From Psilocybe cubensis (Eukaryota), in the NCBI GenBank assembly GCA_017499595.2, contig CM039000.1, forward strand, positions 3,286,001 to 3,350,000: a stretch of DNA of 64,000 nt, in the 5' to 3' direction. Below the pieces are notes generated by a model, which worked only from the letters and a program-made list of their open reading frames with translations, had not been told where the DNA came from and did not search any database. The position numbers and the translations under genes are program-made. Below, piece by piece: positions 7,301-51,283 of this stretch (the stretch's first letter is position 1; each line of letters begins with the position of its first letter).

Positions 7301-8449
7301 TTATTCTGAGTCTGAGAAATCCATATCACATTCAGATAGATCAGCTTGATCATTTTCAAGCGTTAAATCTTTGGGCTTGTCGGGCAACGGTGCAGAAGCA
7401 TGACTAAGCACTTTTGCAGGAGGGGGTGGCGGTGGGGGTGAAGACGGAGGTGGGGGCATTGAAGGAGGCGGCGGCGGCGGCGGGTCAAACGGCGGCGGAA
7501 GAGGCGGCGGTTCCTCAGATGGAGGTGGAGGCGGCTGGGAACCATAGTACGAAAATTGACACAGATATGCGGTGGTATTCTCGAAACGAGTACTATACCA
7601 TGTTTCAGAGGGAGGAGGCGATTTGTAGGGTATCAGGTGCTGCGAAGAGAAATAGCTAGGAGGGTAATTTGCCCATCGGATAGGTACGAGAGGTTCATCC
7701 CTGGATTCCTCGTCAGAAGAGGAGGCTGAACTACTCAAGTGGCGACTAGATGAATCTTCAGAGCCAGATTGGTCCTCATGCTTTATATCAGTAAGACGGG
7801 TAATCTTGAAGGTATCTCCAAATGACACTTGGTCTATATGATCATCATCCCCATGGATCTCGAAAGGCGTTGAATCATCAAGTTCACCTTCAATGTCACC
7901 ATCTATTTCGTTCCAGATACGTGATCTAACACGTTCTCGTGGATCAATTGGGCTGATCCATCCAGGAGGGTAACCCCAGACAGAGATATTTCTAAGCCAT
8001 TCTTCGTTGTAGGTCCCCAGGGCTTCCTTCAGGAGTTCTCCCTTGATTTTACCTGGTTCGAATTCTTCCAGCCAATTCAAACGTTGCTGCCTCCAGGCTT
8101 CAACAGCATGAATTCTTTGCCAATTTCCGGTCCCTAGAGTTCCTTGTTTAAATTGATAATATTGCCTTGAGAGTGCTATGAGCTCGCGATTGAGACGAAG
8201 GGGACATTCTGTGACTTTATGATCCGGTTCTCCACAGTTGAAGCACCTGCTTTGATCTGAATCAAGTTGGTGATCCGTCGATTCGCCGTCAACATCATCT
8301 CCTAGAACATTGGTGTCTGACCGTTCGTACACCCCATAGAGTTCATAGAAGCCAGGAATAGGTTCCGCAGAGGAATGATAGAAAAATAAAGGCCCTAATT
8401 CGTTGGTTTGATCTCCGTTGTTTCCGACGGTATTTGGTTCTGATCCCAT
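7301..8449 (-). CDS. ZCCHC8-like protein: CCHC zinc knuckle + PSP domain + Pro-rich tail
   Basis: 382-aa intronless ORF with knuckle CFNCGEPDHKVTEC, PSP-like PGKIKGELLKEALG...WLRNISVWGYPPGW, poly-Pro tract and C-terminal DMDFSD. The start codon overlaps the neighbouring gene. Confidence 0.8.
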   Translation of the reverse strand: MGSEPNTVGNNGDQTNELGPLFFYHSSAEPIPGFYELYGVYERSDTNVLGDDVDGESTDHQLDSDQSRCFNCGEPDHKVTECPLRLNRELIALSRQYYQFKQGTLGTGNWQRIHAVEAWRQQRLNWLEEFEPGKIKGELLKEALGTYNEEWLRNISVWGYPPGWISPIDPRERVRSRIWNEIDGDIEGELDDSTPFEIHGDDDHIDQVSFGDTFKITRLTDIKHEDQSGSEDSSSRHLSSSASSSDEESRDEPLVPIRWANYPPSYFSSQHLIPYKSPPPSETWYSTRFENTTAYLCQFSYYGSQPPPPPSEEPPPLPPPFDPPPPPPPSMPPPPSSPPPPPPPAKVLSHASAPLPDKPKDLTLENDQADLSECDMDFSDSE

Positions 8450-46807: not shown

Positions 46808-47412
46808 TCATTTAAGTTGTACACTTTGCCAGATTTTTTACCCCTATCTTTCTTTCTCTAGTTCCGGAGTCATTTGAATTGTACTTACCAAAACTATCCA
46901 GCTTTTCTCTCTTGCTTTCGAAGTCGTTTTGCACCCGTCGATCAGTGTTTTGCTACTTGTCGTAACAGTCATGTATCATTCAATATGGAGTTGATTTCTT
47001 GAATTTTACAAGCATTATGAATCAAGATTCAATGAGCTTGCGGTTCTAGTCTTGAAACCTAAATTGATTCTTGCGCCCAAAGAACTCAAATGCTCTTTCT
47101 AAAAATAGTGACGCAATTTCGACGCAGTAGCTTTCTTCGAGTCAATTAAGTGGTTGTACGTATCATGCAGTCATTGCAGGCGCCAAATACACTTCGAAGA
47201 GGAAGACGCGCAAGGTGAACGATTAAATGTATATAAGCATTTTAGATGTTCCCAATTTGATTTATTGCTATAGTTTCTACTGTATGCATCGTACAATCTG
47301 ATTTCTACTTCGGTTCCTTCTCCAATTCTATCCTAGAGCAATGAGCGACTCTTTGCACAACGGTACGGAAGCAAGGTTGCTCGCTTCCACGTCGACAGGT
47401 ATCAGGGTCGGT

Positions 47413-49119
47413 TTACAGTTCAGTTCCCAACCTATAATTATGAAAAGAAAAGAAAAACAGAAAAAACATGCTCAGTATAATTATTCAATAAAAAGGAATC
47501 ACTTGGAGGAAGAAGAGACTGGGGGAGTAGGGATGCCCGACGATGAAAGGAGGGGTATTGCAAATGCTGCTGCAAGCACCAGAACGGCTATTGCTACCGC
47601 TGGAAAATAGGGCGAAAATGTAGATGGTTTAGTCTGATCGCGATGTACGGCAGGCCCCAGTTTCGATTTGTTTTGCAGGTAGGAAGAGGAATAGACGGGG
47701 GCTGATGGGATAAGGTGAACGTACCCTATGGACTTGAAACCGTGGATACTAGTAAAAGGTCATCAATACACCGATGGAGGAGGGTAAAACTAATCAAAAG
47801 AGCTTACTAGTATCCTTCAATATTCCGTTTAATCTCATCCTCCATACCAAGAGGAACACCAGCGAGAGAGAAAACAACCTTGGTTGATTCAGATCCTTGT
47901 TCCAAAGTTGTCGTAAGAGTAGCCTCGTGTCCTATAGCAGAGTGAGCATTCTCTTCGAAAGAGGAATTGGAGGCGCAGTAACGAACCTGAAGGCCATGTT
48001 GGGCTATGGAGTGCCCATGTCTGAACAATCTCCTTCTGTGGCGTCAGGGAAATATATTTGCCCTTCACGCCACCCCCGAACAGAGAGTATTCAGTACCAG
48101 CTTTGCCTTGCGACTAAACGCAATGAAGTTTCAGAATGTGATAATATGAAGGAAATGAAGGGTTAATACCTGAGCGGCAGCACGAGTCCACATTGGAATA
48201 CGCTTCTCGTCCGTCAAAAGACCAAAGAGATCGTCAGAAGAGGCACGGAAATCAGCCTCAACCACAATGGAGGTAGAGTTCACTTTTGCTTTCTCTTGAG
48301 CTTTGGGTGCGGCGGGAGCGGGAGTAGATGATGATGAGGCAACAGGGGTTGGCTTTGTTGCGTTTACATTGGCGGAAACTGGAGTCCCGGATCGACTGGG
48401 ATCGGCACTGACAGTTAGATCTTTGCCATGGGTATCGACGATTGCAGCCGGGAATGTAGCAAATTTAGCCTCCAAAGCGGCAGGCAGCCGGGTCCTCGCC
48501 AATGTGAATACGGAGTCAACGGCTGGGGAGGATTCTGTAGTAAGACGCCAGTTGTACTGGCAAAGCGAATATATCAGATAAAATTCGACTAGACAGCACA
48601 TGCCAAAAAAGGTGGAAGAAGATAGCAATTACTTACAACAAATTCAGACAGTTGGTCACAGATAATTTCATGGGAGACTTCTGGAATTGTGAGGGTGCCT
48701 TTTACTTCTGTGCCATCGCTAGTCGTGCCCTTCCACTTTAGAACGACTTTACAATCGAAGATCGTAATTAGCCTATATGCGCCAGAAATCATGGATTAGC
48801 ACGAGTTTCAAGCATGATATAAGATAAATTTATCGTATAACGAGAAGAAAAAACATGTTGGATTGACACGGCAACATGGAGGAGGCAGACTAGCAGACTA
48901 AAGGGACCAAAGTCAAGTTGATTTCACTCACTTTGACTTCCTCTGACCCAGTTCAATATCTCCATCCACTTCTGTCACTTGCGAAATTGAAACGCTCTCG
49001 CCCTCAGTGTCACCAGTGATGGTGATGGTGGGCAGTTCGCGTTCAAACCATTCGGTGCCCCAGCGAGTAACGTTTTTGTTCTTCCAGTGCCAGTTAGCGG
49101 TGCTAGGAGGTAGTGCCAT
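47413..49119 (-). CDS. AHA1: Activator of Hsp90 ATPase Aha1 (spliced form ends SIGLGTEL*)
   Basis: ANWHWKNKN, GDIELGQRKSKLITIFD, GTLTIPEVSHE, AIVDTHGKD; START-like C-domain (LTDEKRIPMWTR, YSLFGGGVKG, LAGVPLGMEDE); last intron 47432-47724; stop TAA at 47413-47415. Confidence 0.95.
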
Positions 49120-51283
49120 TGATAATGAAGGAGGTTGTCGATGTACGTAGCAGAGATGGGAACAGATTTCGAGTTTATTTGGCCGGAGTGAACGGGTTAA
49201 GGTTGGTCTAGCGGATTTATTTATTTGCGTGGCACGGCGTATCGTTGCTTGTCCTCTTCCATGATGTTCCAGGGCTTTCTCGTACTTTCACTCGTATCTC
49301 ATATTTTCCAAGTTCCAACGCCCGTGTTGTTTTCGTATATCACTTCGTCTTTTTGTATAACATCGTCATGAAAGCGGAAAAGCATGCAATTTTGCTCCGG
49401 TGCTGTCTCACAAATTTATCACCCAACGGTTCATCAAATCTTTGTTCATTTTGTTCCAACAAGATCTTCAAAAACTTCATCATGCCTCATGGAGCGACTA
49501 TAATGCACTTCATTTTCGGCCTCTGCTCGGAAGATCCAATCTCCTACTTGGATTGTAGTCCCCAAGTAACGCGAGGCACCAGATTTTCACACATGAAAAC
49601 AATCTTGTATTGCACGAGGCTCTCCACCTTGCAATTGTCTCTGAAATATGTCAAGTCTTGATGCTGTCTTCATTCCAATAATCTCACCGTCTTCTGAAGC
49701 CTCACGATTATGGTGGAGCCCCAAAGATTTGCCGTTCTCTACATCACCTCCTCGGATTGTGTCATCTGCGTTCCTGGCTCTGCTCTATGCTCATGGCGTG
49801 GGCACCTACGCCTGTCATTGGTTTAGACCAACGGGATTTGTTACATATCGTGCCTTGACTGATGCCAATGCAAGGTCAGTCCTATAATATCTCGTGTTCT
49901 CTTGATTTGACACTGGTTATCTTTTATTGCGAAATCCCGATATAAGTCTCGATGTTCCGAGCCAAAAAAAAAAAAAAAACCCACAGCCCAGACGCTCATT
50001 TGACACCTAAGCTAATGAATGCATTAGTCTGTCAGACTTGCAGTGCACCTGATAATACTATATATGATTATAACTGCATCTGTAGGCGCCGTTCTATCGC
50101 TAGTGAGCGATCGCACACCTAGCTACCAGTTGGGACCAGGAGGCCCGGTGGAAATGGAGAGTATGTGATCCGGTTACCTATAACGTACGCCGTTCAAAAA
50201 TCTGTAACGACGACTATTTCCATTTTTCAGAATCCAATCTACCTCCATTTCTAGACACGCAATTGTCTAAATCTTTTTGAATCCTGAAAATAGTAATCAC
50301 AAGTGCTTGAGGCAAGCCACTACAAGCTACCGATAGCGGCCTTGACGGCCGGCGCCTCTGAACGGACCTGATGCCCGACAACAATACTACCTGCATTAGC
50401 AAATTTTTAGTCCGTGACGTTTATTTGTTTGTAGGCGCCACCTCATTTTTTCTCTGATGTAGGTCCGAGTCGGTATGTCGCGGTCATCCTAGCTTTTTAT
50501 GTCCTTTTAACACATACCAAGACTATACGGTCTATGTCTCATAAACCAAGCATAATTGGACGGTCTCGGTGGTAATGTTATTTCCACTAGTTTCCGCGCA
50601 TGGTCAAATCTATTCTGTCAAACACATATGGTCAACCATTTGGCTCCGCCTCGCCGGGGACACATTGTCAATGCGTATGGGAATATCATCGCTTTTCTTT
50701 TGTTCTCGACCTTGCCATAATCTTTACATATTCCTACTTTGATTTGCTGCCGTGAAGGAGGGAGCGAACGCCACCGCCGTATGTTTTAAAGACCCATTAC
50801 CCTATACAATCGGGAGTTGGTTGTAGCATATTTTGCATTCGAGGACTACGTTTATGTCGGGTCAATGGCAGGAAACAACTTAGGCTTGAACTCTGCGGCG
50901 AGGTGGGAGTTGACCTTTTCATAGTCAAGCACTGATGAAAAGCTCACGTATATTGGCAAAAATTTAGATGCCGTATAGCAGATATTAGATTTGGATCGTA
51001 CCCCCGATTTCCTGGGATCATGGACTAATTAGTATCGGGCCTGAGAATGGGGGAAGAAAGGGCCAACGCGGAAAGGTCAAATAAATGAGCACGTCCTTCG
51101 CAAAGACCGTGACGCGAACTTTAAGAAGGGACACCTCTCCGTGGATTATCCCCACCACGCTCTCGTCCTCGAGCCTACCCCTGGAACATTGAGTTCGCGT
51201 ATTTTACCTCGTGGTTCAACATATATCTTCGACCCGTCCTTTATATTTCTCTTTGTTGACCTTCCACCCCGTGCTCAACCACC

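What the first reader, a model, noticed from the sequence alone, without database searches (positions are those of the whole stretch)
47413..47724. AHA1 last intron encodes an alternative, transmembrane-anchored C-terminus
Seen: the last intron (47432-47724, minus strand) is 293 nt, against 50-70 nt for most introns here. It has a canonical donor GTACGT, branch-like TACTGAG, a pyrimidine tract and a TAG acceptor. Splicing gives ...KSIG-LGTEL*, resembling the usual Aha1 end. Reading through the donor stays open for 74 codons (stop TGA 47499-47501): YVHLIPSAPVYSSSYLQNKSKLGPAVHRDQTKPSTFSPYFPAVAIAVLVLAAAFAIPLLSSSGIPTPPVSSSSK*. That is a polar linker, a ~20-residue uncharged hydrophobic helix and a short tail, the layout of a tail anchor. 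Known: Aha1 is described as a soluble Hsp90 co-chaperone. Inference: intron retention or intronic polyadenylation makes a membrane-tethered Hsp90 activator at the ER, mitochondrial outer membrane or peroxisome. I know of no description of this.
Basis: partly seen in the sequence, partly recalled or inferred. Interest (0 to 1): 0.85.

Follow-up and report, generated by a model that had tools for sequence, protein, structure and literature searches.

The report
Membrane-anchored Aha1 isoform from retained intron
In this mushroom, and in many related mushroom-forming fungi, the last intron of the Hsp90 co-chaperone gene AHA1 is itself a conserved coding sequence, so leaving it unspliced replaces the last five residues of Aha1 with a flexible linker and a membrane-spanning helix.

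Summary
AHA1 (minus strand, identical to Psilocybe cubensis JR316_0003913) has a 293-nt last intron (47432-47724). Its first 223 nt continue the reading frame for 74 codons: linker, 20-residue hydrophobic helix, short tail. Alone this is weak, since 1.4% of shuffles do as well. Three further lines support it.

1. Conservation. The same read-through tail occurs in 25 of 120 Agaricomycete Aha1 gene models (Agaricales, Polyporales, Amylocorticiales), plus Jaapia and Schizopora. It is complete in 44 of 47 metagenome loci. 42 of those 44 also keep the downstream acceptor and the LGxxL-stop mini-exon. Substitutions show codon periodicity (161/123/284). Pooled pN/pS is 0.60, against about 1.0 in shifted frames.

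2. Transcripts. In P. cubensis, RNA-like contigs splice all six introns in one run. In the other, the whole last intron is covered at about half the exon depth while introns 1-5 are spliced out.

3. Other species. Transcript-like contigs, and one genome annotation with two variants, show both forms.

Membrane insertion, the target organelle and the function are inferred, not shown. Eight full-text searches found no description of an anchored Aha1.

The parts
47413..49119 (-). AHA1 coding region. Seven exons: 49119-48932, 48772-48637, 48556-48170, 48113-47987, 47931-47808, 47748-47725, 47431-47413.
   Evidence: The gene model translates to 334 aa identical to P0001 (Psilocybe cubensis JR316_0003913). 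P0001's precomputed Pfam domains are Aha1_N and AHSA1, and the P. cyanescens orthologue P0002 scored both. Introns 1-5 are confirmed as joints in RNA-like contigs of X1 and X2 (table 5).
47725..47748 (-). 24-nt mini-exon 6, encoding (Y)IHGFKSIG. This is the last sequence shared by both isoforms.
   Evidence: The motif HG[FL]KSIG is conserved in all 47 metagenome loci. The AlphaFold model ends the last helix of the C-domain at residue 326, just before the branch point.
47432..47724 (-). Last intron, 293 nt, either spliced out or retained.
   Evidence: Spliced in X2 record 5 (47255-47429 joined to 47723-47748). Covered end to end by X1 record 2 (47403-47748, word depth 56.9 against 114.9 for the exon contig).
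47719..47724 (-). Splice donor GTACGT. It also encodes the third base of Gly and then Tyr-Val, so it is dual-use sequence.
   Evidence: The donor is GTACGT or GTATGT in 47 of 47 loci. This accounts for the invariant 'GYV' in alignments A1, A2 and A3.
47502..47723 (-). Alternative C-terminal coding extension of 74 codons: a proximal YVHLIP..YSSSY segment, a polar basic linker, the TMD, and a short S/P-rich tail ending in K.
   Evidence: GC is 51.6% against 20.9% for the rest of the intron. Homologous tails appear. Selection signal.
47547..47606 (-). Predicted transmembrane helix (F40-L59 of the tail) carrying the conserved AAF-x-I/V-P motif.
   Evidence: Best 19-residue Kyte-Doolittle mean is 2.62. 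A60, A61, F62 and P65 are invariant in A1 and at least 90% conserved in A2. The model of the P. cyanescens orthologue has a helix at 367-388, with pLDDT about 85 for residues 371-380.
47499..47501 (-). TGA stop codon of the retained-intron isoform.
47432..47498 (-). Non-coding 3' part of the intron: T-rich, with branch-like TACTGAG at 47471-47477 and the acceptor TAG.
   Evidence: GC 20.9%. In 37 distinct orthologous introns this part is 40-131 nt (median 54). It carries a CTGAG- or CTAAC-like element in most of the sequences printed, and median GC is 0.37 against 0.50 for the ORF part.
47413..47431 (-). Terminal exon 7, encoding (G)LGTEL plus the TAA stop. This is the canonical Aha1 end.
   Evidence: The same LG[ST]xL-stop mini-exon lies 219-333 nt from the donor in 42 of 44 complete loci. 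71 of 120 gene models end this way.
47255..47412 (-). 3' UTR, reaching at least as far as 47255.
   Evidence: X2 record 5 reaches 47255. X1 has no depth below 47322 and X2 none below 47248.

Best explanation
AHA1 of Psilocybe cubensis, and of Agaricomycetes at least from Hymenochaetales to Agaricales, makes two proteins from one gene by alternative use of its last intron.

When the intron is spliced, the product is ordinary soluble Aha1 ending ...KSIG-LGTEL.

When the intron is retained, or in some species possibly cut and polyadenylated inside it, translation runs through the donor (G|GTAYGT reads Gly-Tyr-Val). It adds a tail of 52-83 residues:

- a conserved proximal segment;
- a disordered, net-basic linker;
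- one hydrophobic helix of about 20 residues with a conserved AAF-x-I/V-P-Y motif;
- a short C-terminal stub, median 9 residues, usually +1 in charge.

The split falls directly after the last helix of the Aha1 C-domain, so both Hsp90-binding domains stay intact. The layout is that of a tail-anchored protein. It would be inserted after translation, with the Aha1 domains in the cytosol tethered to a membrane surface, and would stimulate the Hsp90 ATPase there.

The ER is my first guess for the membrane (hydrophobic helix, weakly charged stub). The mitochondrial outer membrane is second.

Shown here: the sequence anatomy, conservation of both ends, purifying selection on the tail's frame, and transcripts of both kinds.

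Inferred: translation, membrane insertion, the organelle, local Hsp90 activation, and regulation of the ratio.
For: Anatomy.

Identity: P0001 is 100% identical. Aha1_N and AHSA1 domains scored in the orthologue P0002.

Conservation in a search that did not use the tail (exon 3 as query):
- Of the 120 models listed, 25 carry the homologous tail, 71 have the spliced end, 21 stop at ..EGY and 3 are other.
- Further tail models are Galerina, Hermanssonia, Jaapia, Schizopora, Steccherinum, Gymnopus and Collybiopsis.

Metagenome loci:
- 47 loci; 44 have complete tails, and all 44 have a hydrophobic 19-mer with mean KD of 1.96 or more.
- 42 of 44 also have the downstream acceptor and LGxxL-stop exon.
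- The donor is GTAYGT in 47 of 47.
- Loci closest to Hebeloma and Laccaria, whose annotated models are the spliced form, also carry the tail.

Selection:
- Pooled pN/pS is 0.60 in frame, against 1.04 and 1.00 in shifted frames (64 pairs).
- Window against L013 gives 0.15.
- Differences by codon position are 161/123/284.
- By region: proximal 0.42, TMD 0.49, linker 0.77, stub 0.70.
- Between close loci, ORF lengths differ by whole codons, while the post-stop parts differ by 17-20 nt.
- Antisense frames are open in only 2-3 of 38 sequences.

Tail features across 72 distinct tails: TMD mean KD 1.77-3.01; stub 1-25 aa; linker mostly +3.

Structure: C-domain helix 309-326, disorder 336-363, helix 367-388.

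Transcripts:
- In X1 and X2, five introns are joined out and the intergenic flank is silent.
- X2 splices intron 6. X1 covers it whole at depth 56.9 against 114.9.
- L014 is an intron-free contig with the tail ORF and an A-run about 75 nt after its stop.
- P0056 (tail) and P0054 (spliced) are 100% identical over 323 residues, from two sources.
- Stygiomarasmius scandens has 'Co-chaperone' (338 aa) and 'Co-chaperone, variant 2' (401 aa) on the same contig, identical up to ..KSIG.
Against: - No protein-level evidence, no localisation and no function test.
- The 47 loci were selected by similarity to the tail (155 pattern matches, 47 confirmed, 108 never shown). They cannot show how universal the tail is, and lineages that lost it would be invisible.
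- Their open frame is partly true by construction.
- The pyrimidine-rich composition favours open frames. Frames +1 and +2 are fully open in 14 and 21 of 38, and 19% of shuffles stay open for 50 or more codons.
- Selection is moderate. Pooled pN/pS is 0.60, and within one clade (L026-L042) pairwise values are 0.7-1.3. The pairs are not phylogenetically independent.
- X1 record 2 has only 24 aligned letters (plus 4 unaligned) and 29 letters in the flanking exons. That is below the tool's 31-letter criterion for bridging. Its link to spliced upstream exons is inferred from where it stops and from the absence of cover on the other introns.
- X1 and X2 are labelled RNA only as a guess. Contig depth is a poor measure of abundance.
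- Retained last introns can also be slowly spliced pre-mRNA.
- The read-through gene models are predictor output, not independent evidence of expression.
- Only 4 of the 35 short, transcript-like contigs carry the tail.
Confidence: 0.8

Rival explanations
1. The tail is translated, but it acts as a regulatory or degradation device rather than an anchor. In this view, retention diverts part of the AHA1 output into a protein whose hydrophobic C-terminus marks it for quality control, so the event tunes the dose of soluble Aha1.
For: Retention is sizeable in X1 and unseen in the contigs of X2, which would fit dose control. Selection on the linker and the stub is weak (pN/pS 0.77 and 0.70).
Against: A degron would not need a helix of constant length placed 1-25 residues from the end, a basic upstream flank, and an invariant AAF..P motif across 72 distinct tails from at least five orders. 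Dose control alone would also not keep 52-83 codons open.
Confidence: 0.08
2. This is ordinary inefficient splicing of an unusually long intron, and the open frame and hydrophobic stretch are a by-product of pyrimidine-rich composition. The long gene models would then be predictor artefacts.
For: 19% of shuffles stay open for 50 or more codons, and 1.4% also have a hydrophobic segment. Other sense frames are often open. Intron retention is the commonest splice variation in fungi (recalled; compare PMC5034255, passages read).
Against: The tail aligns at the amino-acid level across orders. Third-position substitutions are in excess, and pN/pS is below the shifted-frame controls. Indels in the ORF part are in frame only. 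The stop always falls 40-131 nt before the acceptor.
Confidence: 0.03
3. The conserved signal belongs to something else inside the intron: an antisense gene, a snoRNA, or a structured regulatory RNA.
For: Long introns in fungal housekeeping genes can host snoRNAs (recalled). A 102-codon open frame exists on the plus strand at 47302-47610.
Against: Rfam at a permissive threshold gave only 4 matches over 47200-48000. All had E above 4 and scored far below the gathering scores. Antisense frames are open in 2-3 of 38 orthologous sequences. The conservation pattern is codon-periodic in the sense frame.
Confidence: 0.02

Closest known systems
Canonical Aha1 / AHSA1 (yeast Aha1, human AHSA1)
   Same: It has the same two domains, Aha1_N and AHSA1. 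The spliced isoform ends in the usual short ..IG-LGxxL end.
   Different: The known protein is described as soluble (recalled). Here a second, conserved isoform replaces the last five residues with a linker and a transmembrane helix.
FKBP8 (FKBP38), a membrane-anchored Hsp90 co-chaperone of animals
   Same: It is a precedent for tethering the Hsp90 machinery to the cytosolic face of a membrane. PMC13470449 calls FKBP8 ER-anchored and links it to membrane-protein folding (abstract start seen in the listing only).
   Different: The family is unrelated: PPIase plus TPR (recalled). It is a constitutive anchor, not a splice variant, and it docks Hsp90 rather than stimulating its ATPase. The tail here has no Pfam family.
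Dual targeting of fungal enzymes by alternative 3' splicing or stop-codon read-through (cryptic peroxisomal targeting)
   Same: One gene yields a cytosolic form and an organelle-directed form through an alternative C-terminus. PMC4207609 describes dual localisation of metabolic enzymes in fungi by read-through (title and abstract start seen in the listing). The original splicing paper is recalled, not read.
   Different: Those cases add a three-residue peroxisomal signal to metabolic enzymes. Here a 52-83-residue linker and membrane helix are added to a chaperone regulator by intron retention.
SKI7/HBS1, an ancient conserved alternative splicing event in fungi
   Same: It is a rare example of a protein-diversifying splice choice conserved over long fungal evolution (PMC3597508, title and abstract start seen in the listing).
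   Different: The gene and mechanism differ, and no localisation change of this kind is involved.
Tail-anchored chaperone receptors such as plant AtTPR7/OEP61, and mitochondrial Tom70
   Same: These are membrane-bound docking sites for Hsp90/Hsp70 at the organelle surface (recalled, not from a call).
   Different: They are TPR clamp receptors, not Aha1-type ATPase activators, and are not produced by intron retention.

Membership tests
Aha1 / AHSA1 co-chaperone family | An N-terminal Aha1_N domain (PF09229) and a C-terminal AHSA1 domain (PF08327) | tested here: met
   P0002 (P. cyanescens orthologue carrying the tail): Aha1_N at 14-151, E 6.9e-35; AHSA1 at 212-325, E 3.4e-17. The window's own product P0001 has both as precomputed Pfam domains.
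Aha1 / AHSA1 co-chaperone family | Binds Hsp90 and stimulates its ATPase | not testable with these tools
   Inferred from family membership only.
Tail-anchored membrane proteins | A single hydrophobic transmembrane segment close to the C-terminus, with roughly 30 or fewer residues after it | tested here: met
   72 distinct tails: best 17-23-residue window has mean KD 1.77-3.01, followed by 1-25 residues (median 9). Helix at 367-388 of 403 in the model.
Tail-anchored membrane proteins | No N-terminal signal peptide and no other transmembrane segment | tested here: inconclusive
   No signal-peptide or topology predictor was run. The rest of the protein models as the two soluble Aha1 domains at high pLDDT, with no other long helix of this kind.
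Tail-anchored membrane proteins | Post-translational insertion (GET/TRC40 or another pathway) with the N-terminus in the cytosol | not testable with these tools
   Inference only. The net-basic upstream flank (mostly +3) and weakly charged stub (mostly +1) fit that orientation.
Conserved protein-diversifying alternative splicing (intron retention) | Transcripts of both forms exist | tested here: met
   X2 spliced, X1 with the intron covered. L014. P0054 and P0056. Two annotated variants in S. scandens. Caveat: all are contigs or annotations, not raw reads.
Conserved protein-diversifying alternative splicing (intron retention) | Both alternative coding ends are conserved under selection | tested here: met
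   42 of 44 complete loci keep both ends. pN/pS is 0.60 in frame against about 1.0 in shifted frames.
Conserved protein-diversifying alternative splicing (intron retention) | Both proteins are made | not testable with these tools
   No proteomic or ribosome-profiling data were at hand.
FKBP8-type or TPR-type membrane Hsp90 co-chaperones | TPR clamp and/or PPIase domain | tested here: not met
   Only Aha1_N and AHSA1 were found in P0002. The tail has no family; the best match is DUF2339, E 0.087, below the cut-off. The comparison is of how it works, not of membership.

The most novel reading that the evidence does not exclude
Mushroom-forming fungi have kept, since before the Hymenochaetales-Agaricales split, a regulated splice switch that moves part of the cell's Hsp90 activator onto an organelle surface. 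The invariant AAF-x-I/V-P-Y face of the helix would then be more than an anchor: it would be a specific contact with a membrane partner or targeting factor. The switch would couple Hsp90 cycling to the folding or import of membrane-associated clients, and would respond to condition or developmental stage, as the X1/X2 difference hints.
Probability: 0.35. Interest if true: 0.85.

Novelty: new variant of a known kind. Interest (0 to 1): 0.72.

Why it matters
Aha1 is the strongest known accelerator of the Hsp90 ATPase and is treated as a soluble cytosolic factor (recalled). A conserved membrane-anchored isoform would mean that Hsp90 activation can be localised to a membrane surface by a splice choice.

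That bears on how cytosolic domains of membrane proteins are chaperoned. In animals this theme is tied to AHA1 and CFTR, and to FKBP8 (listings).

It would also add one of the few deeply conserved, protein-diversifying alternative splicing events known in fungi. Intron retention there is usually read as noise.

On the practical side, public annotations of this gene split three ways: 71 spliced, 25 read-through and 21 truncated at ..EGY of 120. The first two are both real products. The third is likely an annotation artefact.

Tried and rejected
- Whole genome of the window: none is held. I made no genome-wide intron-length survey and no search for paralogues of the tail.
- The look-up of sequencing runs: no RNA holder listed. 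X1 and X2 are 'RNA?' by guess, and their spliced contigs were then seen.
- Rfam over 47200-48000 at E up to 10: 4 matches, all far below the gathering scores. The snoRNA or riboswitch idea was dropped.
- Pfam on the tail: only DUF2339 at E 0.087, below the cut-off.
- HMMER of the 82-residue tail against 1.84 billion representatives: 11 hits, all short ORF fragments of the same tail. No other protein family shares it.
- Profile search with 26 tails in 'longer' mode was capped at 8000 candidates. It returned only 17 proteins and missed many known tail models, so it is no census.
- Earlier findings of this scan: none.
- Antisense coding: rejected.
- Chance ORF: the single sequence is weak, so I do not rest on it.
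- Literature: eight full-text searches found no paper describing a membrane-anchored or tail-anchored Aha1. Searches addressed Aha1, AHSA1 or tail-anchored splice isoforms directly. Searches covered fungal alternative splicing generally. In the Schizophyllum splicing paper, 'Aha1', 'Hsp90' and 'chaperone' each occur 0 times in the main text.
- Not attempted: complex prediction and fold search. Neither bears on the question.
Full report
**What is in the window**

The gene lies on the minus strand from ATG 49119 to TAA 47415-47413. It has seven exons and introns of 159, 80, 56, 55, 59 and 293 nt. The spliced product (334 aa) is identical to P0001, annotated in Psilocybe cubensis as JR316_0003913. 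P0001 carries Aha1_N and AHSA1 as precomputed Pfam domains, and the P. cyanescens orthologue P0002 scored both directly.

Exon 6 is a 24-nt mini-exon (47748-47725) ending ..KSIG. Exon 7 (47431-47413) adds LGTEL and the stop.

- donor GTACGT;
- TACTGAG at 47477-47471;
- a T-rich tract;
- acceptor TAG.

Read through the donor, the frame stays open for 74 codons to TGA 47501-47499. The open part has 51.6% GC and the remaining 67 nt have 20.9%.

**Is the single observation more than chance?**

Barely. Of 5000 dinucleotide-preserving shuffles, 956 stayed open for 50 or more codons. 70 (1.4%) also had a hydrophobic 19-mer near the end. In orthologous sequences the two other sense frames are fully open in 14 and 21 of 38. 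So this composition favours open frames, and the case rests on comparison and transcripts.

**Conservation in annotated proteins**

I searched with exon 3 only, so the search was blind to the tail. It returned 173 Aha1 relatives, of which 120 were listed. Sorted by C-terminus:
- 71 have the spliced ..SIG-LGxxL end.
- 25 read through the same donor into a homologous tail.
- 21 stop at ..EGY. That is what reading into intron 5 gives, so these are probably annotation truncations.
- 3 are other.

The 25 tail models come from Agaricales (Psilocybe, Pholiota, Gymnopilus, Cyclocybe, Crepidotus, Phlegmacium, Hypsizygus, Tricholomella, Panaeolus, Tetrapyrgos, Stygiomarasmius). They also come from Polyporales (Panus, Trametes, Ganoderma, Fibroporia, Amylocystis, Trametopsis) and from Plicaturopsis.

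Later searches added Galerina, Hermanssonia and Jaapia. They also added Schizopora (Hymenochaetales), Steccherinum, Gymnopus and Collybiopsis.

Spliced and tail models occur side by side within the genera Psilocybe, Pholiota, Trametes and Ganoderma.

**Conservation in DNA**

One scan of metagenome contigs with the pattern HG[FL]KSIGY gave 155 matches, and 47 were confirmed as loci. All but one are genomic, with intron 5 present. From:
- 44 have a complete tail ORF. The other 3 run off their contigs.
- All 44 have a hydrophobic 19-mer with mean KD of 1.96 or more.
- 42 of 44 also keep an AG acceptor followed by an LG[ST]xL-stop mini-exon, 219-333 nt from the donor.
- The two exceptions are a contig that ends too early (L005) and the transcript-like L014.

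The donor is GTACGT or GTATGT in 47 of 47. This explains the invariant Gly-Tyr-Val and shows the splice site itself is kept.

In 37 distinct introns the ORF part has median GC 0.50 and the post-stop part 0.37. The post-stop part is only 40-131 nt, and most of the printed sequences carry a CTGAG- or CTAAC-like element.

Between close loci the ORF differs by whole codons, while the post-stop part differs by 17-20 nt. Loci nearest to Hebeloma and Laccaria, whose annotated proteins are the spliced form, carry the tail as well.

Caveat: these loci were chosen by likeness to the tail, and the other 108 pattern matches were never shown. Prevalence and losses therefore cannot be read from this set.

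**Selection**

Nei-Gojobori counts on 38 distinct tail sequences used pairs with pS between 0.03 and 0.6 (64 pairs). Pooled pN/pS is 0.60 in frame, against 1.04 and 1.00 in the two shifted frames. Window against L013 gives 0.15. Over 17 chosen pairs, differences by codon position are 161/123/284.

By region, pN/pS is:

| Region | pN/pS |
|---|---|
| Proximal segment | 0.42 |
| Helix | 0.49 |
| Variable linker | 0.77 |
| Stub | 0.70 |

One clade (L026-L042) shows values near 1. The pairs are not independent. Constraint is therefore real but moderate, and strongest on the proximal segment and the helix.

Antisense frames are open in only 2-3 of 38. Rfam finds nothing in the region.

**The tail as a protein**

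Across 72 distinct tails:
- length is 52-83 residues;
- the best hydrophobic window averages KD 1.77-3.01 (median 2.25);
- 1-25 residues follow it (median 9), usually with net charge +1;
- the part before the helix is mostly +3.

A, A, F and P of the motif AAF-x-I/V-P are invariant or nearly so.

An AlphaFold model of the P. cyanescens orthologue, built with 28 aligned sequences, shows:
- the last helix of the Aha1 C-domain ending at residue 326, just before the split;
- disorder over 336-363;
- a helix at 367-388, with pLDDT about 85 for residues 371-380.

So the alternative end leaves both Aha1 domains whole and hangs them on a flexible tether from one helix near the C-terminus. That is the tail-anchor layout. 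The tail matches no Pfam family. A full HMMER scan found only fragments of this same tail.

**Transcripts**

Contigs of four runs were laid on 47100-49300.

X3 and X4 cover everything evenly and are DNA. X1 and X2 behave as RNA:
- Five introns are skipped with GT..AG ends.
- The one depth bin that lies wholly inside an intron (48802-48875, intron 1) has no cover.
- The downstream flank is silent.

In X2 a single contig joins 47255-47429 to 47723-47748 and runs on through all exons, so the last intron is spliced.

In X1 a 350-letter contig covers 47403-47748 without a break, at word depth 56.9 against 114.9 for the exon contig. It stops exactly at the exon 6 / intron 5 border.

Cautions:
- That contig has fewer than 31 letters in either flanking exon, so it does not meet the tool's own criterion for bridging.
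- Contig depth is a rough measure.
- The RNA label is a guess.

Independent support from other species:
- L014 is an intron-free contig that carries the CDS, the tail, a stop, and an A-run about 75 nt later. This hints at polyadenylation inside the intron.
- P0056 (tail, 383 aa on a 1235-nt contig) and P0054 (spliced, 328 aa on a 1064-nt contig) come from different sources and are 100% identical over 323 residues up to ..KSIG.
- The Stygiomarasmius scandens annotation lists 'Co-chaperone' (338 aa) and 'Co-chaperone, variant 2' (401 aa) on the same contigs, identical over 333 residues.
- Of the 35 models that sit on contigs under 5 kb, 4 carry the tail, 28 the spliced end, 2 end at ..EGY and 1 is other.

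**Mechanism**

This part is inference. The choice between splicing and retention (or intronic polyadenylation) of an intron four to five times the usual length decides the product. One outcome is soluble Aha1. The other is Aha1 tethered by its C-terminus to the cytosolic face of a membrane.

Because the retained intron is the last one and its stop lies within it, the mRNA need not be a decay target (inference). The hydrophobic helix and weakly charged stub point first to the ER, and second to the mitochondrial outer membrane. These rules are recalled, not tested here.

The tethered form would raise Hsp90 ATPase activity locally.

**Comparison and novelty**

The protein is a member of the Aha1 family. 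The tail fits the tail-anchored class on the features I could test. Functionally it resembles membrane-bound Hsp90 co-chaperones such as FKBP8 (abstract start seen), but it is not of their family. As a genetic device it resembles fungal dual targeting through alternative C-termini, and the conserved SKI7/HBS1 splice event (listings).

Both isoforms already sit unremarked in public annotations. Eight full-text searches found no paper describing a membrane-anchored Aha1. Six of them addressed Aha1, AHSA1 or tail-anchored splice isoforms directly, and two covered fungal alternative splicing generally. The Schizophyllum splicing paper does not mention the gene in its main text.

I rate it a new variant of a known kind: well supported as a conserved coding alternative, and untested as a membrane protein.

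Noticed in passing
window 47749-47808 (intron 5, minus strand) and proteins P0003, P0008, P0010 and others: Reading into intron 5 gives an immediate stop (..EGY-TAG). 21 of the 120 listed Aha1 gene models end exactly at ..EGY or ..QGY. Gene predictors probably missed the 24-nt mini-exon, so these are annotation truncations rather than a third isoform.
   Followed up: partly
L014:706-810: In this transcript-like metagenome contig, a run of about 30 A begins about 75 nt after the tail's stop codon. It is followed by C and T runs and then unrelated sequence. This could be a poly(A) tail inside the 'intron' joined to another transcript by the assembler, or a genomic A-run.
   Followed up: partly
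proteins P0042 (Favolaschia claudopus, 583 aa) and P0080 (Grifola frondosa, 1444 aa): These gene models fuse Aha1 with a YJU2 splicing-factor domain and with an SNF2-type helicase respectively (Pfam columns). P0080 departs from Aha1 right after ..KAIG. They are likely merged neighbouring genes.
   Followed up: no
window 48369 (also 47148, 47957, 48625, 48823): There are single-letter differences between the window and the laid contigs. T>C at 48369 is seen in both RNA-like runs and in DNA run X4. The others are seen in DNA runs only and lie in introns or the flank. They look like strain variation.
   Followed up: no
window 48114-48169 and 47932-47986 (minus strand): Introns 3 and 4 have unusual donors, GTATTA and GTTCGT. 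They are nevertheless cleanly joined out in both RNA-like runs.
   Followed up: no
loci L026-L029, L032-L040 and L042: Within this clade of metagenome loci, pairwise dN/dS of the tail is 0.7-1.3. The linker seems to evolve almost freely there, while the helix motif is kept.
   Followed up: partly
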